64,000 bases of DNA from the NCBI GenBank assembly GCA_964016885.1, contig OZ024741.1, positions 409,386,001 to 409,450,000 on the forward strand. Direction: 5' to 3'. The translations under genes and the position numbers were made by a program. Positions within the stretch are counted from its first letter, which is position 1. The number at the start of each line of letters is the position of its first letter. This document shows, piece by piece, positions 41,764-61,971 of this stretch. This stretch comes from Eledone cirrhosa (lineage: Eukaryota). Under the pieces are notes generated by a model that ran no database searches, was not told where the DNA came from, and saw nothing but the letters and a program-made list of their open reading frames with translations.

Positions 41764-41963
41764 NNNNNNNNNNNNNNNNNNNNNNNNNNNNNNNNNNNNN
41801 NNNNNNNNNNNNNNNNNNNNNNNNNNNNNNNNNNNNNNNNNNNNNNNNNNNNNNNNNNNNNNNNNNNNNNNNNNNNNNNNNNNNNNNNNNNNNNNNNNNN
41901 NNNNNNNNNNNNNNNNNNNNNNNNNNNNNNNNNNNNNNNNNNNNNNNNNNNNNNNNNNNNNNN
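41764..41963. other. Assembly gap (200 N)
   Basis: Exactly 200 Ns. The round size is typical of a scaffolding placeholder, so true distance and adjacency are unknown. Confidence 0.99.
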
Positions 41964-44900
41964 CTACTACTACTACCAACATCTACTACTTACTACCATC
42001 ATTACTACTACGACTACTACCAACATTACTACTACTACCAACATTACTACTACTACTACCAACATTACTACTACTACTACAACATTACTACTACTACTAC
42101 CAACATTACTACTACTACTACCAACATTACACTACTACCAACATTACTACTACTACCAACATTACTACTACTACCAACATTACTACTACTACCAACATTA
42201 CTACTACTACTACCACATTACTACTACTACTACCAACATTACTACTACTACCAACATTACTACTACTACTACCAACATTACTACTACTACTACCAACATT
42301 ACTACTACTACTACTACCAACATTACTACTACTACCAACATTACTACTACTACTACCAACATTACTACTACTACTACCAACATTACTACTACTACTACTA
42401 CCAACATTACTACTACTACCAACATTACTACTACTACTACCAACATTACTACTACTACCAACATTACTACTACTACTACCAACATTACTACTACTACCAA
42501 CATTACTACTACTACCAACATTACTACTACTACTACCAACATTACTACTACTACCAACATTACTACTACTACTACCAACATTACTACTACTTACTACCAA
42601 CATTACTACTACTACCAACATTACTACTACTACTACCAACATTACTACTACTACTACCAACATTACTACTACTACTACCAACATTACTACTACTACTACC
42701 AACATTACTACTACTACTACCAACATTACTACTACTACTACCAACATTACTACTACTACTACCAACATTACTACTACTACCAACATTACTACTACTACTA
42801 CCAACATTACTACTACTACCAACATTACTACTACTACTACCAACATTACTACTACTACCAACATTACTACTACTACCAACATTACTACTACTACTACCAA
42901 CATTACTACTACTACCAACATTACTACTACTACTACCAACATTACTACTACTACCAACATTACTACTACTACTACCAACATTACTACTACTACCAACATT
43001 ACTACTACTACTACCAACATTACTACTACTACCAACATTACTACTACTACCAACATTACTACTACTACTACCAACATTACTACTACTACCAACATTACTA
43101 CTACTACCAACATTACTACTACTACCAACATTACTACTACTACTACCAACATTACTACTACTACCAACATTACTACTACTACTACCAACATTACTACTAC
43201 TACTACCAACATTACTACTACTACTACCAACATTACTACTACTACCAACATTACTACTACTACTACCAACATTACTACTACTACCAACATTACTACTACT
43301 ACTACCAACATTACTACTACTACCAACATTACTACTACTACCAACATTACTACTACTACCAACATTACTACTACTACCAACATTACTACTACTACCAACA
43401 TTACTACTACTACAACATTACTACTACTACCAACATTACTACTACTACCAACATTACTACTACTACTACCAACATTACTACTACTACCAACATTACTACT
43501 ACTACCAACATTACTACTACTACCAACATTACTACTACTACTACCAACATTACTACTACTACTACAACATTACTACTACTACCAACATTACTACTACTAC
43601 CAACATTACTACTACTACTACCAACATTACTACTACTACCAACATTACTACTACTACCAACATTACTACTACTACTACCAACATTACTACTACTACCAAC
43701 ATTACTACTACTACCAACATTACTACTACTACTACCAACATTACTACTACTACCAACATTACTACTACTACTACCAACATTACTACTACTACTACCAACA
43801 TTACTACTACTACCAACATTACTACTACTACCAACATTACTACTACTACTACCAACATTACTACTACTACCAACATTACTACTACTACCAACATTACTAC
43901 TACTACCAACATTACTACTACTACCAACATTACTACTACTACCAACATTACTACTACTACTACCAACATTACTACTACTACTACCAACATTACTACTACT
44001 ACCAACATTACTACTACTACCAACATTACTACTACTACTACCAACATTACTACTACTACTACAACATTACTACTACTACCAACATTACTACTACTACTAC
44101 CAACATTACTACTACTACCAACATTACTACTACTACCAACATTACTACTACTACCAACATTACTACTACTACCAACATTACTACTACTACCAACATTACT
44201 ACTACTACCAACATTACTACTACTACCAACATTACTACTACTACCAACATTACTACTACTACCAACATTACTACTACTACCAACATTACTACTACTACCA
44301 ACATTACTACTACTACCAACATTACTACTACTACTACCAACATTACTACTACTACCAACATTACTACTACTACTACCAACATTACTACTACTACCAACAT
44401 TACTACTACTACCAACATTACTACTACTACCAACATTACTACTACTACTACCAACATTACTACTACTACCAACATTACTACTACTACCAACATTACTACT
44501 ACTACCAACATTACTACTACTACTACCAACATTACTACTACTACTACCAACATTACTACTACTACTACCAACATTACTACTACTACCAACATTACTACTA
44601 CTACCACATTACTACTACTACCAACATTACTACTACTACCAACATTACTACTACTACCAACATTACTACTACTACCAACATTACTACTACTACCAACATT
44701 ACTACTACTACCAACATTACTACTACTACCAACATTACTACTACTACCAACATTACTACAACTACCAACATTACTACTACTACCAACATTACTACTACTA
44801 CCAACATTACTACTACTACTACCAACATTACTACTACTACCAACATTACTACTACTACTACCAACATTACTACTACTACTACCAACATTACTACTACTAC

Positions 44901-47900
44901 CAACATTACTACTACTACAACATTACTACTACTACCAACATTACTACTACTACTACCAACATTACTACTACTACCAACATTACTACTACTACCAACATTA
45001 CAACTACTACCAACATTACTACTACTACCAACATTACTACTACTACTACCAACATTACTACTACTACCAACATTACTACTACTACCAACATTACTACTAC
45101 TACTACCAACATTACTACTACTACTACCAACATTACTACTACTACCAACATTACTACTACTACTACCAACATTACAACTACTACCAACATTAATACTACT
45201 ACCAACATTACTACTACTACTACCAACATTACTACTACTACCAACATTACTACTACTACTACCAACATTACTACAACTACCAACATTACTACTACTACCA
45301 ACATTACTACTACTACCAACATTACTACTACTACCAACATTACTACTACTACTACCCAACATTACTACTACTACCAACATTACTACTACTACCAACATTA
45401 CTACTACTACTACCAACATTACTACTACTACCAACATTACTACTACTACCAACATTACAACTACTACCAACATTACTACTACTACTACTACCAACATTAC
45501 TACTACTACCAACATTACTACTACTACCAACATTACTACTACTACCAACATTACTACTACTACTACCAACATTACTACTACTACCAACATTACTACTACT
45601 ACTACCAACATTACTACTACTACCAACATTACTACTACTACCAACATTACTACTACTACCAACATTACAACTACTACCAACATTACTACTACTACTACTA
45701 CCAACATTACTACTACTACCAACATTACTACTACTACCAACATTACTACTACTACCAACATTACTACTACTACTACCAACATTACTACTACTACCAACAT
45801 TACTACTACTACTACCAACATTACTACTACTACCAACATTACTACTACTACCAACATTACTACTACTACTACCAACATTACTACTACTACCAACATTACT
45901 ACTACTACCAACATTACTACTACTACCAACATTACTACTACTACCAACATTACTACTACTACTACACAACATTACTACTACTACCAACATTACTACTACT
46001 ACCAACATTACTACTACTACCAACATTACTACTACTACTACCAACATTACTACTACTACCAACATTACTACTACTACCAACATTACTACTACTACTACCA
46101 ACATTACTACTACTACCAACATTACTACTACTACTACCAACATTACTACTACTACCAACATTACTACTACTACTACCAACATTACTACTACTACCAACAT
46201 TACTACTACTACTACCAACATTACTACTACTACCAACATTACTACTACTACTACCAACATTACTACTACTACCAACATTACTACTACTACCAACATTACT
46301 ACTACTACTACCAACATTACTACTACTACTACCAACATTACTACTACTACTACCAACATTACTACTACTACCAACATTACTACTACTACCAACATTACTA
46401 CTACTACCAACATTACTACTACTACCAACATTACTACTACTACTACCAACATTACTACTACTACCAACATTACTACTACTACCAACATTACTACTACTAC
46501 TACCAACATTACTACTACTACCAACATTACTACTACTACTACCAACATTACTACTACTACCAACATTACTACTACTACTACCAACATTACTACTACTACT
46601 ACCAACATTACTAACTACTACCAACATTACTACTACTACTACCAACATTACTACTACTACTACCAACATTACTACTACTACCAACATTACTACTACTACC
46701 AACATTACTACTACTACCAACATTACTACTACTACCAACATTACTACTACTACCAACATTACTACTACTACCAACATTACTACTACTACTACCAACATTA
46801 CTACTACTACCAACATTACTACTACTACTACCAACATTACTACTACTACCAACATTACTACTACTACTACCAACATTACTACTACTACTACCAACATTAC
46901 TACTACTACCAACATTACTACTACTACTACCAACATTACTACTACTACCAACATTACTACTACTACCAACATTACTACTACTACCAACATTACTACTACT
47001 ACTACCAACATTACTACTACTACTACCAACATTACTACTACTACCAACATTACTACTACTACCAACATTACTACTACTACCAACATTACTACTACTACTA
47101 CCAACATTACTACTACTACCAACATTACAACTACTACCAACATTACTACTACTACTACTACCAACATTACTACTACTACTACCAACATTACTACTACTAC
47201 CAACATTACTACTACTACCAACATTACTACTACTACTACCAACATTACTAACTACTACCAACATTACAACTACTACCAACATTACTACTACTACTACTAC
47301 CAACATTACTACTACTACTACCAACATTACTACTACTACCAACATTACTACTACTACTACCAACATTACTACTACTACCAACATTACTACTACTACTACC
47401 AACATTACTACTACTACTACCAACATTACTACTACTACCAACATTACTACTACTACTACCAACATTACTACTACTACTACCAACATTACTACTACTACCA
47501 ACATTACTACTACTACCAACATTACTACTACTACTACCAACATTACTACTACTACCAACATTACTACTACTACTACCAACATTACTACTACTACTACCAA
47601 CATTACTACTACTACCAACATTACTACTACTACCAACATTACTACTACTACTACCAACATTACTACTACTACCAACATTACTACTACTACTACCAACATT
47701 ACTACTACTACCAACATTACTACTACTACTACCAACATTACTACTACTACCAACATTACTACTACTACTACCAACATTACTACTACTACCAACATTACTA
47801 CTACTACTACCAACATTACTACTACTACTACCAACATTACTACTACTACCAACATTACTACTACTACTACCAACATTACTACTACTACTACCAACATTAC

Positions 47901-50900
47901 TACTACTACCAACATTACTACTACTACCAACATTACTACTACTACCAACATTACTACTACTACCAACATTACTACTACTACCAACATTACTACTACTACC
48001 AACATTACTACTACTACTACCAACATTACTACTACTACCAACATTACTACTACTACTACCAACATTACTACTACTACCAACATTACTACTACTACTACCA
48101 ACATTACTACTACTACTACCAACATTACTAACTACTACCAACATTACTACTACTACTACCAACATTACTACTACTACTACCAACATTACTACTACTACCA
48201 ACATTACTACTACTACCAACATTACTACTACTACCAACATTACTACTACTACCAACATTACTACTACTACCAACATTACTACTACTACTACCAACATTAC
48301 TACTACTACCAACATTACTACTACTACTACCAACATTACTACTACTACCAACATTACTACTACTACCAACATTACTACTACTACCAACATTACTACTACT
48401 ACTACCAACATTACTACTACTACTACCAACATTACTACTACTACCAACATTACTACTACTACCAACATTACTCCTACTACCAACATTACTACTACTACTA
48501 CCAACATTACTACTACTACCAACATTACTACTACTACCAACATTACTACTACTACCAACATTACTACTACTACTACCAACATTACTACTACTACTACCAA
48601 CATTACTACTACTACCAACATTACTACTACTACCAACATTACTCCTACTACCAACATTACTACTACTACTACCAACATTACTAACTACTACCAACATTAC
48701 TACTACTACCAACATTACTACTACTACTACCAACATTACTAACTACTACCAACATTACAACTACTACCAACATTACTACTACTACTACTACCAACATTAC
48801 TACTACTACTACTACCAACATTACTACTACTACCAACATTACTACTACTACCAACATTACTACTACTACTACTACCAACATTACTACTACTACCAACATT
48901 ACTACTACTACCAACATTACTACTACTACTACTACCAACATTACTACTACTACCAACATTACTACTACTACCAACATTACTACTACTACCAACATTACTA
49001 CTACTACTACTACCAACATTACTACTACTACCAACATTACTACTACTACCAACATTACTACTACTACCAACATTACTACTACTACTACTACCAACATTAC
49101 TACTACTACTACTACCAACATTACTACTACTACTACTACCAACATTACTACTACTACCAACATTACTACTACTACCAACATTACTACTACTACCAACATT
49201 ACTACTACTACTACCAACATTACTACTACTACCAACATTACTACTACTACTACCAACATTACTACTACTACTACTACCAACATTACTACTACTACTACTA
49301 CCAACATTACTACTACTACCAACATTACTACTACTACCAACATTACTACTACTACCAACATTACTACTACTACCAACATTACTACTACTACCAACATTAC
49401 TACTACTACTACCAACATTACTACTACTACCAACATTACTACTACTACTACCAACATTACTACTACTACCAACATTACTACTACTACTACCAACATTACT
49501 ACTACTACCAACATTACTACTACTACTACCAACATTACTACTACTACTACCAACATTACTAACTACTACCAACATTACTACTACTACTACCAACATTACT
49601 ACTACTACCAACATTACTACTACTACTACCAACATTACTAACTACTACCAACATTACAACTACTACCAACATTACAACTACTACCAACATTACTAACTAC
49701 TACCAACATTACTACTACTACTACCAACATTACTACTACTACCAACATAACAACTACTACCAACATTACTACTTCTACCAACATTACTACTACTACCAAC
49801 ATTACTACTACTACCAACATTACTACTACCAACATTACTAACTATTACCAACATTACTAACTACTACCAACATTACTACTACTACCAACATTACTAACTA
49901 CTACCAACATTACTACTACTACTACCAACATTACTACTACTACCAACATTACTACTACTACCAACATTACTAACTACTACCAACATTACTACTACTACAA
50001 ACATTACTAACTACTACCAACATTACTACTACTACCAACATTACTACTTCTACCAACATTACTAACTACTACCAACATTACTACTACTACAAACATTACT
50101 AACTACTACCAACATTACTAACTACTACCAACATTACTACTACTACCAACATTACAACTACTACCAACATTACTAACTACTACCAACATTACTACTACTA
50201 CCAACATTACTACTACTACCAACATTACTACTACTACCAACATTACTACTACTACTACCAACATTACTAACTACTACCAACATTACTACTACTACTACCA
50301 ACATTACTAACTACTACCAACATTACTACTACTACTACTACCAACATTACTACTACTACCAACATTACTACTACTACCAACATTACTAACTACTACCAAC
50401 ATTACTACTACTACCAACATTACTAACTATTACCAACATTACTAACTACTACCAACATTACTACTACCAACATTACTAACTATTACCAACATTACTACTA
50501 CTACCAACATTACTACTACTACCAACATTAATACTACTACCAACATTACTACTACTACCAACATTACTAACTACTACCAACATTACTACTACTACCAACA
50601 TTACTAACTACTACCAACATTACTACTACTACCAACATTACTACTACTACCAACATTACTAACTACTACCAACATTACTAACTACTACCAACATTACTAC
50701 TACTTCCAACATTACTAACTACTACCAACATTACTAACTACTACCAACATTACTAACTACTACCAACATTACTACTACTACCAACATTACTACTACTACC
50801 AACATTACTAACTACTACCAACATTACTAACTACTACCAACATTACTACTACTACCAACATTACTAACTACTACCAACATTACTACTACTACCAACATTA

Positions 50901-51303
50901 CTAACTACTACCAACATTACTCCTACTACCAACATTACTAACTACTATCAACATTACTACTACTACCAACATTACTACTACTACCAACATTACTACTACT
51001 ACCAACATTACTACTACTACCAACATTACTACTACTACCAACATTACTAACTACTACCAACATTACTCCTACTACCAACATTACTAACTACTATCAACAT
51101 TACTAAGTACTACCAACATTACTACTACTACCAACATTACTACTACTACCAACATTACTACTACTACCAACATTACTACTACTACCAACATTACTACTAC
51201 TACCAACATTACTACTACTACCAACATTACTACTACTACCAACATTACTACTACTACCAACATTACTACTACTACGAACATTACTATCTACTACCAACAT
51301 TAC
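41964..51303 (+). repeat. Minisatellite array CCAACATTA(CTA)n, mostly 18- and 21-bp units (occasionally 15 or 24)
   Basis: Direct: units ccaacatta+(cta)2-5. The + strand is almost G-free. A 1-nt-insertion variant (ctaactacta) becomes frequent after ~49550. Confidence 0.99.
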
Positions 51304-51682
51304 TACCACCACCACCACCACCTCCACAACCACTACCACCACTAAGGCCACCACCACCACCACGACTACCACCATCACCACTACCACTACCACCACCATC
51401 AACACCACTTCCACACAACCACCATCATCACCACCACCATCATTACCACCAATAGCACCACCACTACGACCACTACCACCACCACCATCACCACCACCAC
51501 CACCACAACTACCACCACCACCACCACCACCACAACCATCACCACCACTACCACCACCAAAACCACCATCACCACCACCACCACTACCACCACCACAAAC
51601 ACTACCACCACCACCACCACCACCACACCACCACCACCACACCACCACCACATCCACCACCACACCACTACCACCACCACCA
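51304..51682 (+). repeat. Degenerate (CCA)n/(CTA)n trinucleotide tract
   Basis: Direct: cca-rich imperfect triplets contiguous with the minisatellite. Confidence 0.92.
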
Positions 51683-54488: not shown

Positions 54489-55906
54489 GTTCATTTGGAG
54501 TTGATTTTGACTTGAGCATCAATGCTTTCTACGACGCTCTGCTAATCTACACAAGTGATGAGAATACACCGAAACTATTGAAGGATATCCGGCTTGTGAT
54601 CAACGACCGTGACAGCGTGACGTTTGCCATCATCATCCTCAACCAGTTGAATTCCATGGACTCTAAAGAAATCACAGAGGCTGCCCTGGAACGGTACAAG
54701 TTCTCTTGTAGGAAACAAACACAAAGACATTGTTCACAGCAGACAAAAAAACCGACTGGAGGTTCTGTAGAAACAAAAACCAGCGAAGCAAAACTGAAGA
54801 AGCAGTTGATTGTGAAAGAGTCACAGCTGGAACCACCGGTGCCGTCGGAGGTTAATAAACCGATAGGGTTGGGTTCACCTCGTCGCAGTCCCTCCTACAC
54901 TCAAGCTATGTGCCAACTGGAGAATGGCTGTATGACAAAGAACGACACGCAGGCGAACTGTGAACAAAAAGCAAATTCTTTGAATTTTCGCAAGAAGGCC
55001 GATTGCAAAATCGATGAAGAGAGTCCAGACGGGGTCACGTCGTGCCTTTCGGCTTTAATTCATCAAACAAAAACAACCCTGGGAGCCATTAGAGAGACTA
55101 ATCTGGACCGGAAACGATCCAGTTCTGTGGGATCAATAGTGCGAAATCGAATACAATCTAGCGCTGTAGGTGGAAGTGACATGGACGTTCGCGTCGGCGC
55201 AAGGCTGGCTAGATCCAGTTCATGCCATCTTGAAAAAGATGAGAAGAATGCTGCCAATTCGACCAGCAACACAAACAATAGCAACAACATTAACAGCAGT
55301 CATTGTGAAGATGGCGGAAAAGGATGTAGCAGTAGAGACACGAAAGGTTCCAAGGCGGCCTGCAGCTCTGCGACATCAACGCCGTCCAAAAGTCACCAAT
55401 CTACTTCTGTTAAACAAGCACTACTGAGTACATCACAAAAAGTCCACTCTAAGGATTCGTCGACGCCGCGCTCGGGTTTTCAACCACCAAAAAGTATGGA
55501 AAGCACATCGGAGAAGGACTCTAAATCAACTGCCCATCGCGGAGAAAAGAGCAAAAAAGACACAGACAAATCTAAAAAAGATGGCGACTATGACATGCGC
55601 GCCACAAACCACATCGCTGCTCTTCTGGACAAAGAGCGGGACTTGTGTAGCAGCTGTCGAGAGAGAATTGGACAGCGAGAAGAACTGTGTTGCGGTCACT
55701 GTTTGTGTAAAACATGCTACCGTGAAATTACAAAGAAGAAACCTGTCTGCCCTGACTGCGGGACCGTGTATGCACCGATTGTTGGGGATCAGCCCAAGAA
55801 CGGCAAAATGTGTGTTACATTGGAACATAAACTTAAATTGCCCGGATATGAGACAGCCAATGGGACTATTGTCATCAACTATAATATACCTGATGGCATA
55901 CAAGAG
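54489..55906 (+). CDS. Internal coding exon of a Deltex-family (DTX3L-like) RING E3 ubiquitin ligase: probable macrodomain C-terminus, low-complexity linker, RING-HC, start of the Deltex C-terminal domain
   Basis: Acceptor ctctctccatctccacAG|gt (54488/54489, phase 1) and donor gag|GTcagt (55906/55907, phase 0) bracket a 1418-nt stop-free frame. RING: CSSC-x11-CGH-x2-CKTC-x10-CPDC. It is followed by GDQPKNGKM...LPGYETANGTIVINYNIPDGIQ, the typical Deltex C-terminal start. The N-terminus GSFGVDFDLSINAFYDAL...LLKDIRLVIND resembles the end of a macrodomain. Confidence 0.9.
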
Positions 55907-57440: not shown

Positions 57441-59617
57441 ATCATCATCATCATCATCACCGTTTTACGTCCGTTCTTCCACGCTAGCATGGGTTAGACG
57501 GGTTGTCCTGTTGTGGGCAGTGTCTGGTCGGCTGACCATGCCTTGCTCATACAGGAACTGATCTGGCTTGATTTCTACAGCTGGATGCCCTTCCTAACAC
57601 CAACCTCATTTACAGTGAGTGCTGGGTGCTTTTTCGTGGCGCCTACACGTCCACTTTACAGTGTGGGCTGGGTGCTTTTTTGCCGTGGCACCTCCACGAC
57701 CACCTTGCGGTGGGGGGGGGGGGGGCATATTGTTTATATGCTTCAGCATGTACCCATGGGAGGTCGGGTACCCTGTATTACTGCGTGACGCCAGAAGTCA
57801 CGGTCGTGTGTCATTGACTTTGAGAGGTGTAGTTGGGTAAGGTCGGCTTTTATCACCTCATCCCAAGTCATCTTGGGTCTCCCCACTCCGCGGTTTCCAT
57901 CAACTTCTAGTGCTCTGCACCTTTTTATGCAGCTGTCATCCTTCATACGCATCACATGTCCATACCAGCGTAACCGCCTCTCCTGCACGCAGCATTTGAT
58001 TCCTCTTATGCTCAGTCTCTCTCTCAATTCATTTATGCTTTGTCGTTCACGTATATTACTGTTACACATCCATCGGAGCATGCAGGCTTCGTTTCTCTCT
58101 AATCTACGTAAGTCTTCCACCTTCAGCGCCCAGGTCTCACTACCATGCAACATCGCTGTTCGGATACACGCATCATACAGTCTGCCTTTCATTCTGAGGG
58201 AGAAGCCTTTTGCAGCTAGCAGTGGTAGTAGTTCCCTAAACTTCTTCCATCCCGTTCTTACCCTAGTTATTGTACTTTCTGAGCACCCACCTCCGTTGCT
58301 AATTCGGTCACCTAGGTAGCAGAAGCTGTCTACTGTTTCTACAGGGCCCTCCCAGAGATTGGTGGTACTTGTTTCCTGTGGCTGTTTGCTTGCTGTTTCA
58401 GCACAGCTGCTGCATGTGAATCCTACATTCTTAATTAAGCTTCCTGAGATCCCGCTACATCTCTTGTGTACCCATTGTTTGCATTTGGGGCAAAGAATGG
58501 AGTTCCTACCTACACCTTTCCTACATACTGAGCAAGGCCATTTCCCTGAGGGGATCTGGGTTCTGTTTTCTCGTCTACTTATAAGGACCTTAGTCTTTGT
58601 CATGTTGACTTTGAGGCCCTTTCTCTCTAGTCCCTGCTTCCAGGTTTGGAATTTATTCTCTAGTTCTACCATAGATTCAGCTATGAGTGCGAGGTCATCA
58701 GCATACAGGAGTTCCCATGGGCATCCGGTCTTAAACTCCTCCGTTATTGCCTGCAGGACTATGATGAACAGGAGAGGGCTAAGAACAGAGCCCTGGTGGA
58801 CCCCAACCTGTACGCTAAATTCCTCGCTATACTCATTGCCAATCCTAACTTTGCTGACTGCTCCCCTATACATGGCTTGTACCGCTTTCACAAGCCATTC
58901 ATCTACTCCTAGTTTTCTAAGAGCCCACCAGATTACTGCACGTGGAACTCTGTCAAAGGCTTTCTCAAGGTCGACAAATGCCAAGTAGAGTGGCTTACTT
59001 TTAGCTAGGTACTTTTCCTGTAATTGCCTCACAAGGAAGAGCGCATCAGTGGTGCCTTTCCCTGGAACAAACCCAAATTGCATCTCGTCTATATTCACCC
59101 GGTCCCTAATCAGCTGTGCTATAACTCTTTCTGTTACTTTCATGACCTGGTCCATCAACTTTATACCTCTATAGTTTCCTCTATCTAGTGCATCGCCTTT
59201 ACCTTTGTAGCAGTTGACAATGATGCTACTGCACCAATCTTTTGGTATGGCCCCCTCTAGTATTACCTGGTTAACGATACGTGTGGTTATAGTGTGACCT
59301 ACAGACCCAGATGCCTTCAGCATCTCGGCAGCTATACCCGATGGACCGGTTGCCTTCCCTATCTTCATATCTCTGATTGCCTTACTTACTACGCTGCCGC
59401 TGACTTGTACTGCTGGTCCCTCTATAGGGTCTACGTGGGGTAGGGTCTCTTCTTCCCATGCATTCTCCTCATTTAGTAATCTATCATAATGACTCTTCCA
59501 TGCATCTTTCTTCTCAGCACTTGTGAGGGCAAGCTCACCTTTATCATTCCGGATACACTTCTCTCCAATGACATCACAACTATCTCTGACACACTGCCTC
59601 GCAATCTTGAATACCTC

Positions 59618-59620
<3 letters not shown>
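57441..59620 (-). mobile_element. 5'-truncated RTE-clade LINE inserted in (TA)n
   Basis: Open RT frame, ~300-nt 3' UTR, (GAT)n tail at 57441-57458, TA runs on both sides. Confidence 0.95.
57743..59620 (-). CDS. LINE reverse transcriptase (5'-truncated, endonuclease missing) with an embedded PHD finger
   Basis: 541-aa ORF with NYRGIKL, QFGFVPGKGTTDA, FVDLEKAFDRV, GVHQGSVLSPLLF and YADD motifs. The frame stays open upstream to ~59620 (EVFKIARQ...WKSHYDRLLNEEN). C4HC3 motif CSVC..CPKC..HKRC..CSSC lies after the RT core. Confidence 0.92.
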
Positions 59621-59649
<29 letters not shown>

Positions 59650-59653
<4 letters not shown>

Positions 59654-60914: not shown

Positions 60915-61971
60915 ATCATCATCACCGTTTTACGTCCGTTCTTCCACGCTAGCATGGGTTAGACGGGTTGTCCTGTTGTGTGCAGTGTCTGGTCGGCTGA
61001 CCATGCCTTGCTCATACAGGAACTGATCTGGCTTGATTTCTACAGCTGGATGCCCTTCCTAACACCAACCTCATTTACAGCGAGTGCTGGGTGCTTTTTC
61101 GTGGCGCCTACACGTCCACTTTACAGTATGGGCTGGGTGCTTTTTTTGCCGTGGCACCTCCACGACCACCTTGCGTTGGGGGGAGTGGGGGCATATTGTT
61201 TATATGCTTCAGCATGTACCCATGGGAGGTCGGGTACCCTGTATTACTGCGTGACGCCAGAAGTCACGGTCGTGTGTCATTGTCTTTGAGAGGTGTAGTT
61301 GGGTAAGGTCGGCTTTTATCACCTCATTCCAAGTCATCTTGGGTCTCCCCACTCCGCGGTTTCCATCAACTTCTAGTGCTCTGCACCTTTTTATGCAGCT
61401 GTCATCCTTCATATGCATCACATGTCCATACCAGCGTAACCGCCTCTCCTGCACGCAGCATTTGATTCCTCTTATGCTCAGTCTCTCTCTCAATTCCTTT
61501 ATGCTTTGTCATTCACGTATATTACTGTTACACATCCATCGGAGCATGCAGGCTTCGTTTCTCTCTAATCTACGTAAGTCTTCCACCTTCAGCGCCCAGG
61601 TCTCACTACCATGCAACATCGCTGTTCGGAAACACGCATCATACAGTCTGCCTTTCATTCTGAGGGAGAAGCCTTTTGCAGCTAGCAGTGGTAGTAGTTC
61701 CCTAAACTTCTTCCATCCCGTTCTTACCCTAGTTATTGTACTTTCTGAGCACCCACCTCCGTTGCTAATTCGGTCACCTAGGTAGCAGAAGCTGTCTACT
61801 GTTTCTACAGGGCCCTCCCAGAGATTGGTGGTACTTGTTTCCTGTGGCTGTTTGCTTGCTGTTTCAGCACAGCTGCTGCATGTGAATCCTACATTCTTAA
61901 TTAAGCTTCCTGAGATCCCGCTACATCTCTTGTGTACCCATTGTTTGCATTTGGGGCAGAGAATGGAGTTC
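60915..61971 (-). mobile_element. Second, shorter 5'-truncated copy of the RTE LINE
   Basis: Near-identical to 57441-58505; compare ORFs 57873 and 61339, which differ by a few residues. (GAT)n tail, TA flanks. Confidence 0.95.

What the first reader, a model, noticed from the sequence alone, without database searches (positions are those of the whole stretch)
54489..55906. Macrodomain-RING-Deltex protein: a possible one-polypeptide equivalent of the PARP9/DTX3L complex
Seen: the exon starts in phase 1 with (G)SFGVDFDLSINAFYDALLIY...LLKDIRLVINDRDSVTFA and ends with a C3HC4 RING plus the Deltex C-terminal start, joined by a long Ser/Lys/Thr-rich linker. Known: macrodomains end with an (S/T)GxFG loop that binds ADP-ribose phosphates, a helix, and an LxxIx(L/F)VxxD strand. 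In mammals the macrodomain protein PARP9 and the RING-DTC ligase DTX3L are separate partners in interferon and DNA-damage responses, and RING-DTC modules ubiquitylate ADP-ribose. Inference: this invertebrate gene fuses an ADP-ribose reader to the ligase, suggesting an ADP-ribosylation-directed ubiquitylation system in an animal without classical interferon. Only the last third of the putative macrodomain is in the window. I cannot tell whether this architecture has already been described.
Basis: partly seen in the sequence, partly recalled or inferred. Interest (0 to 1): 0.75.

Follow-up and report, generated by a model that had tools for sequence, protein, structure and literature searches.

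The report
Disarmed macrodomain-Deltex ligase of octopuses
This octopus exon belongs to an old invertebrate gene type that joins an ADP-ribose-handling domain to a Deltex ubiquitin ligase, but the octopus copy has replaced the residues that Deltex ligases need to attach ubiquitin to ADP-ribose while staying almost unchanged between species, so it is likely a non-catalytic regulator rather than a working ligase.

Summary
Exon 54489-55906 encodes the last third of a macrodomain, a Ser/Lys/Thr-rich linker, a C3HC4 RING and the DTC start. Orthologs 88-92% identical (Octopus, Argonauta) are 1,482-1,530 aa: RRM, Macro, RING, DTC. The gene's 5' part was not found in this assembly; a 200-N gap lies 12.5 kb upstream.

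The fusion is not new. It occurs from sponges to amphioxus (17 of 29 long relatives), and a 2026 preprint states that DTX3L lost its macrodomain when PARP9 arose.

The functional reading fails for this gene. Its DTC has Asn, Cys and Gln at DTX3L His707, Tyr719 and Glu733, shown in this genome's own exons. Published mutants at the equivalent positions impair ADP-ribose ubiquitylation. The RING's E2-binding Ile is Ser. All six other molluscan orthologs keep these residues. The octopod branch is long (1.22), then almost frozen (0-0.025), which points to repurposing, not decay. A second macro-RING-DTC gene in the same genome keeps the catalytic pair.

Verdict: a likely pseudo-ligase variant of a known architecture, untested biochemically.

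The parts
54489..55906 (+). Internal coding exon (phase 1 to phase 0, 472 codons) of the octopod macrodomain-Deltex gene, 'gene A'
   Evidence: AG/GT borders and open frame; 92% identical to Octopus and 88% to Argonauta orthologs
54489..54673 (+). C-terminal third of the macrodomain: loop 2 (G-S-F-G), following helix, last strand and helix
   Evidence: 100% identical over 62 residues to O. bimaculoides and Argonauta; aligns to PARP14 macrodomains
54491..54496 (+). Loop-2 Ser-Phe: the aromatic is kept, the usual hydrophobic residue is replaced by Ser. O. bimaculoides and O. sinensis have an annotated isoform with 15 extra residues at this exon junction
54674..55630 (+). Ser/Lys/Thr-rich linker, presumed disordered, but conserved (86-89% among octopods, 63% to unnamed P0001)
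   Evidence: disorder inferred from composition
55646..55759 (+). C3HC4 RING, all eight zinc ligands present; Ser at the E2-binding Ile position (CSSC)
55784..55906 (+). Start of the DTC domain. It is completed by two in-frame exons outside the window (G000:C2:409495383-409495600 and 409499022-409499091), which carry the His-to-Asn, Tyr-to-Cys and Glu-to-Gln changes
41764..41963 (.). 200-N gap between two long tandem arrays; likely where the 5' part of the gene (RRM, KH-like region, linker, macrodomain N-part) is missing from the assembly
   Evidence: gap shown; 5' part not found; its location in the gap is inferred

Best explanation
The exon belongs to the octopod ortholog of a molluscan RRM-macrodomain-RING-DTC gene; its DTC has lost the catalytic His and Glu and its RING the E2-binding Ile, so the protein is predicted not to ubiquitylate ADP-ribose and likely acts as a non-catalytic adaptor or decoy. 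Shown: the architecture in orthologs, orthology with gastropod and bivalve genes, the substitutions, and a burst of change followed by strong conservation. Inferred from human mutants: loss of ADP-ribose ubiquitylation and weak E2 recruitment. Inferred and untested: the macrodomain, which keeps its Asn, loop-1 Gly (Octopus) and loop-2 Phe, still engages mono-ADP-ribosylated targets; the RRM/KH-like end and long linkers bring the protein to RNA or PARP14-like partners; and it would then shield or gate marks that active ligases in the same genome (gene B at C2:279.43 Mb, the Deltex at C22) ubiquitylate. The 15-residue insert in loop 2 would switch ADP-ribose binding off.
For: Orthologs with RRM, Macro, RING, DTC. 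Concatenated Macro+RING-DTC tree: octopods group with 6 other molluscan-type genes at 98/98, stem 1.22, tips 0-0.025; the macro-only tree agrees (SH-aLRT 96). Alignment to PDB 3pg6, 6y22 and 6y5n places Asn, Cys and Gln at His707, Tyr719 and Glu733 (numbering, counted along the alignment). The same residues are in this genome's exons and in unnamed relative P0180. Of 47 complete DTC motifs in 43 of 150 representatives, 42 have His+Glu, 46 keep Glu, and only the octopod has Asn+Gln. All tested substitutions of DTX2 His582 or Glu608, including E608Q, impaired Ub-NAD+ formation (PMC7615817 section 9); DTX1 H581A, H593A and I413A/Y424A are defective (PMC7500938). RING: 147 of 150 matches have Ile or Val at that position, and the single Ser is the octopod. 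Folded domains stay 91-100% identical among octopods. Gene B is in frame over five exons and keeps GDIT, CPIC, His, an aromatic and Glu.
Against: No activity, binding, partner or expression was measured. Four of the six DTX1 side chains that contact NAD+ (Trp, Thr, Arg, Ser) are kept, so the pocket may still bind a nucleotide. Unnamed relative P0001 has Val, not Ser, in the RING, so E2 loss may be limited to octopods, and the published RING mutant was a double mutant. The RING-DTC tree alone did not place the octopod group with the other molluscan genes. Macrodomain status is open: Asp-to-Ser/Asn is common in this family, Argonauta also lost the loop-1 Gly, and Ile-to-Ala in loop 2 of coronavirus Mac1 left hydrolysis normal and raised binding (PMC10802294 abstract). 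The macrodomain link is not shown in this genome itself. Gene B is not a close sister of gene A, so division of labour is only inferred.
Confidence: 0.55

Rival explanations
1. Ordinary lysine-directed E3 ligase: the DTC no longer activates ADP-ribose but now binds a protein substrate, and the RING still recruits an E2.
For: All zinc ligands and the Pro of the last CxxC are kept; RING and DTC are 92-99% conserved among octopods; P0001 keeps Val at the E2 position; Deltex ligases also ubiquitylate proteins.
Against: Ser at the BRCA1-Ile26-equivalent position in all named octopod sequences; Gly at the linchpin position, which is suboptimal though also seen in DTX3.
Confidence: 0.25
2. One reading: a working one-chain ADP-ribose reader plus ADP-ribose ubiquitin ligase.
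For: Architecture confirmed in orthologs; part of the NAD+ pocket is kept.
Against: His, aromatic and Glu are all replaced; mutants at each equivalent position impair the reaction in human Deltex proteins.
Confidence: 0.1
3. New chemistry: the remodelled Asn/Cys/Gln pocket accepts a different small or nucleic-acid acceptor.
For: The three changes are fixed in all cephalopod-type sequences seen; the pocket Trp, Thr, Arg and Ser are kept.
Against: No general base remains at the known positions; no ligand evidence.
Confidence: 0.06
4. In this species the gene is really 5'-truncated or a relic.
For: Residues 1-912 of the ortholog were not found in G000 (run with a stricter first look, 0 matches, no match on C2).
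Against: The half-domain is 100% identical to the orthologs; three exons are in frame to a normal stop; a 200-N gap between long repeats lies upstream, the same length as another gap on this contig.
Confidence: 0.04

Closest known systems
Macrodomain-bearing DTX3L orthologs of non-vertebrate metazoans (bioRxiv 10.64898/2026.04.23.720386, section 5)
   Same: RRM, macrodomain and RING-DTC in one chain
   Different: The text I read calls the catalytic residues strictly conserved and does not mention molluscs or octopus (0 hits; figure and supplements not seen). The octopod protein has replaced them, has about 650- and 320-residue linkers, and has an annotated loop-2 insert isoform.
Human DTX3L (PDB 3pg6) with PARP9
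   Same: RRM start, C3HC4 RING, DTC (E 4e-40); macrodomain most like PARP14 macrodomain 1 by score, PARP9 hit E 3.6e-9
   Different: One chain; no ART domain; no Pfam KH_DTX3L match; His707, Tyr719 and Glu733 replaced
Gastropod and bivalve orthologs (Haliotis XP_048249649.1, Patella KAK6185919.1, Mytilus XP_076105086.1, Tegillarca, Dreissena)
   Same: Same clade (98/98) and the same core domain order; RRM matched by Pfam in Patella, Mytilus and P0014
   Different: They keep His, aromatic, Glu, RING Ile and 4 of 4 macrodomain hydrolase features
macroH2A1.1 versus macroH2A1.2 (splice switch recalled, from no call)
   Same: An alternative exon in a macrodomain that changes ADP-ribose binding
   Different: Here an insertion in loop 2, known only from gene models of two Octopus species; effect untested

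Membership tests
Deltex (RING-DTC) family | C-terminal RING directly followed by DTC | tested here: met
Active Deltex ADP-ribose ubiquitin ligases | DTC catalytic His and Glu (DTX3L 707/733, DTX2 582/608) | tested here: not met
   Asn and Gln
Active Deltex ADP-ribose ubiquitin ligases | Adenine-stacking aromatic (DTX1 His593, DTX3L Tyr719) | tested here: not met
   Cys in Octopus, Argonauta and P0180; in this genome the Cys follows the last exon junction
Active Deltex ADP-ribose ubiquitin ligases | Other NAD+ contacts (DTX1 Trp577, Thr584, Arg534, Ser566) | tested here: met
   read from the alignment to 6y5n
Active Deltex ADP-ribose ubiquitin ligases | E2-binding Ile of the RING (DTX1 Ile413) | tested here: not met
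   Ser in octopods, Val in P0001
Active Deltex ADP-ribose ubiquitin ligases | Forms Ub-ADPr in vitro | not testable with these tools
   needs a bench assay
Macrodomain (Pfam PF01661) | Whole-domain match above cut-off | tested here: met
   in orthologs: 74.7 and 77.3 bits, cut-off 22; only the C-terminal third is in this assembly
Hydrolase-type macrodomain (PARP9/PARP14 macrodomain 1) | Asn/Ser and Gly at loop 1; hydrophobic plus aromatic in loop 2 (PMC10221186) | tested here: inconclusive
   3 of 4 in O. bimaculoides, 2 of 4 in Argonauta; the missing hydrophobic is dispensable in Mac1
Macrodomain-bearing DTX3L-like proteins of invertebrates | RRM + Macro + RING-DTC in one chain | tested here: met
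   in Argonauta and O. bimaculoides; not shown in G000 itself
Vertebrate DTX3L | One-to-one orthology, KH array, PARP9 binding | tested here: inconclusive
   no KH_DTX3L match; the RING-DTC tree is unresolved at depth; binding not tested

The most novel reading that the evidence does not exclude
Cephalopods turned the ancestral molluscan macrodomain-Deltex ADP-ribose ubiquitin ligase into a tightly conserved pseudo-ligase that regulates ADP-ribose/ubiquitin signalling without catalysis, with an alternative exon that toggles its ADP-ribose-binding loop. This would be a natural loss-of-catalysis variant beside active orthologs, independent of any vertebrate disarmed Deltex.
Probability: 0.35. 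Interest if true: 0.7.

Novelty: new variant of a known kind. Interest (0 to 1): 0.45.

Why it matters
The His-Glu pair is described as strictly conserved in Deltex proteins. A lineage that replaced it and then conserved the protein at 91-100% in its folded domains implies a Deltex function that does not need ADP-ribose ubiquitylation. Active orthologs (abalone, mussel), the disarmed octopus gene and an intact paralog in the same genome make a ready comparison set for separating catalytic from scaffold roles. The intact molluscan genes also allow a test of how a hydrolase-type macrodomain and an ADP-ribose ligase cooperate in one chain. The fusion itself is not a discovery.

Tried and rejected
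1) Upstream exon in this genome. Macro family search gave 31 matches, none near the gene. Macro-bearing frames against 264 kb around the exon gave only repeat hits. The whole ortholog against that region and the genome found only the three 3' exons. The 141-residue macro N-part gave 0 matches. The RRM family gave 3 matches, none on C2. Result: not found with these queries.
2) Sequencing runs: no RNA holder listed; this is no evidence either way. No reads were laid, so splicing and expression in this species are open.
3) The 15-residue insert is not encoded in the assembled region (best 7 of 15 identities, none on the + strand between the gap and the exon). Cassette exon versus alternative acceptor is not resolved.
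4) Neighbouring minus-strand exon 17 kb left of the window, recalled as VPS51-like: no Pfam or PDB match, single copy. PF08700 gave 3 matches elsewhere and a motif pattern gave 0. This is at most weak support that a second gene's 5' end also lies in the gap.
5) Atlas search of the N-terminus: best hits RBM43-like at 0.89, a lead only.
6) Loss of the macrodomain GDI Asp as a cephalopod novelty: rejected, it is Ser, Asn or Ala in many relatives.
7) The motif counts returned 0 through a pattern error and were redone.
8) No structure or complex prediction was run: the folds are clear from sequence and no binding is claimed.
9) Literature searches. None listed a paper on a cephalopod or catalytically disarmed macrodomain-Deltex; four locus or accession ids gave 0 papers. 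The library lacks most subscription papers.

Full report
Observation. The window is mostly tandem repeat: a 56-bp array at 955-41763, a 200-N gap at 41764-41963 and an 18-bp array to 51314. The exon at 54489-55906 has AG/GT borders, starts in phase 1 and reads 472 open codons. Pfam finds the DTC start above cut-off and a weak RING. The window is G000:C2:409386001-409450000. Two more exons 53 and 57 kb downstream complete the DTC in frame to a stop.

The macrodomain is real. A search of 1.84 billion representatives returned P0002, 1,482 aa, matching the whole exon; it is GAB1604051.1 of Argonauta hians. Pfam gives RRM 9-77, Macro 810-926 (E 7.8e-21), RING and DTC. Orthologs in O. bimaculoides, O. 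sinensis and O. vulgaris are 92% identical over the exon. In all of them the exon's first residues complete loop 2 of the macrodomain and align to the last helix and strand of PARP14 macrodomains. The 5' part was not found in G000 (one search ran with a stricter first look). The half-domain is 100% identical to the orthologs and a gap between long repeats lies 12.5 kb upstream, so I infer the 5' exons are missing from the assembly, not from the animal.

The architecture is old and in print. I scanned all 29 representatives of 529 aa or more among the best 150; 17 have Macro with RING and DTC. [quoted passage not shown] I read its abstract, passages and sections 5 and 14, not its figures or supplements. 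An earlier scan note on a clam gene reached the same view (an AI note, not independent support).

This gene differs from its relatives at the active sites. Aligned to DTX3L, DTX2 and DTX1, the octopod DTC has Asn for His707, Cys for Tyr719 and Gln for Glu733 (numbering from PMC10810221 passages, and the preprint). The same residues are in this genome's exons and in an unnamed relative 91% identical. PMC7615817 (passages and section 9) reports that all tested substitutions of His582 or Glu608, including E608Q, impaired Ub-NAD+ formation. PMC7500938 (passages) reports defects for DTX1 H581A, H593A and the RING double mutant I413A/Y424A. Among 47 complete DTC motifs in 43 of the 150 representatives, 42 have His and Glu, four lack only the His, and only the octopod lacks both (the pattern misses variant motifs such as Saccoglossus). 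At the RING Ile position 147 of 150 matches have Ile or Val and the one Ser is the octopod; unnamed P0001 has Val. Against a full loss: Trp, Thr, Arg and Ser of the NAD+ pocket remain.

Macrodomain type. PMC10221186 (passages) lists four features of hydrolase-active macrodomains. All six non-cephalopod members of the molluscan clade have 4 of 4, O. bimaculoides 3 and Argonauta 2. The missing loop-2 hydrophobic residue, visible in the window as Ser, is dispensable in coronavirus Mac1 (PMC10802294 abstract), so activity is open. The family looks like an eraser type more than a pure reader. Gene models of O. bimaculoides and O. sinensis each include an isoform with the same 15 extra residues inside loop 2. 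I could not verify it with reads, and it is not in the assembled intron here.

Evolution. On Macro plus RING-DTC (19 rows, 393 columns) the two octopod sequences join gastropod and bivalve genes at 98/98, with a stem of 1.22 and tips of 0-0.025 changes per column. The macro tree agrees; the RING-DTC tree alone left them unplaced. The insert isoform P0167 was left out of both macro trees, and truncated P0168 out of the concatenated one. All six other clade members keep His, aromatic and Glu. A long stem followed by near stasis suggests a change of function, not decay.

Second gene. Gene B at C2:279428853-279441800 has five in-frame exons encoding Macro, RING and DTC. It shares three intron positions and phases with gene A and keeps GDIT, CPIC, His and Glu, but has no loop-2 aromatic. 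A third DTC gene on C22 also keeps His and Glu.

Mechanism. Most likely gene A encodes a pseudo-ligase: it would bind ADP-ribosylated targets through the macrodomain, localise through its RRM/KH-like end and linkers, and gate or shield marks handled by the active ligases (0.55). Every step after the substitutions is inferred.

Novelty. The fusion is known. I found no paper on the disarmed cephalopod form or the insert isoform (searches; passages of PMC13224862, PMC11251020 and PMC8166818 added nothing on it). Earlier scan notes describe a separate disarmed vertebrate Deltex related to RBM43 (not tested here). The N-terminus here resembles RBM43 by features at 0.89, a lead only. Because the molluscan orthologs are intact, the cephalopod loss would be independent of that one. 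Verdict: new variant of a known kind, interest 0.45.

Noticed in passing
G000:C2:279428853-279441800 (L033, L061-L063): Second Macro-RING-DTC gene (gene B), compact and fast-evolving, with intact DTC His/Glu, RING Ile and GDIT; the likely working reader-ligase in this genome.
   Followed up: partly
P0167/P0177 versus P0178/P0175, at the junction matching window 54489: Identical 15-residue insert in macrodomain loop 2 in annotated isoforms of two Octopus species; a possible splice switch for ADP-ribose binding.
   Followed up: partly
G000:C3:290.28-290.94 Mb (L029-L031, L034-L041, L043-L045, L049-L058): Tandem array of near-identical macrodomain exons (11 copies of one exon among the 31 matches), recalled as PARP14-like; a recent expansion or one many-macro gene.
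   Followed up: no
window 955-41763: 40.8-kb array of a 56-bp unit (729 copies, 96% matches) ending at the gap.
   Followed up: no
window 41964-51682: 9.3-kb strand-biased 18-bp array (GC skew about -1) followed by ACC repeats; its long open frames are repeat artefacts.
   Followed up: no
L004:2793-3170 (-), G000:C2:409368793-409369170: Single-copy exon recalled as VPS51-like, on the opposite strand; its 5' end was not found and may also lie in the gap.
   Followed up: partly
window 57743-59650 (-) and 61200-61970 (-): Fragments of a reverse-transcriptase retroelement (recalled as RTE/LINE-like) in the intron after the exon; copies recur in the flanks.
   Followed up: no
P0028, P0033, P0094, third DTC of P0003: Other DTC domains lacking only the catalytic His (Pro, Pro, Ser, Asn), so partial disarming recurs in the family.
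   Followed up: no
P0060, P0093, P0094, P0130: Scallop and oyster proteins with two macrodomains before RING-DTC, the second lacking hydrolase features, as in PARP9's arrangement.
   Followed up: no
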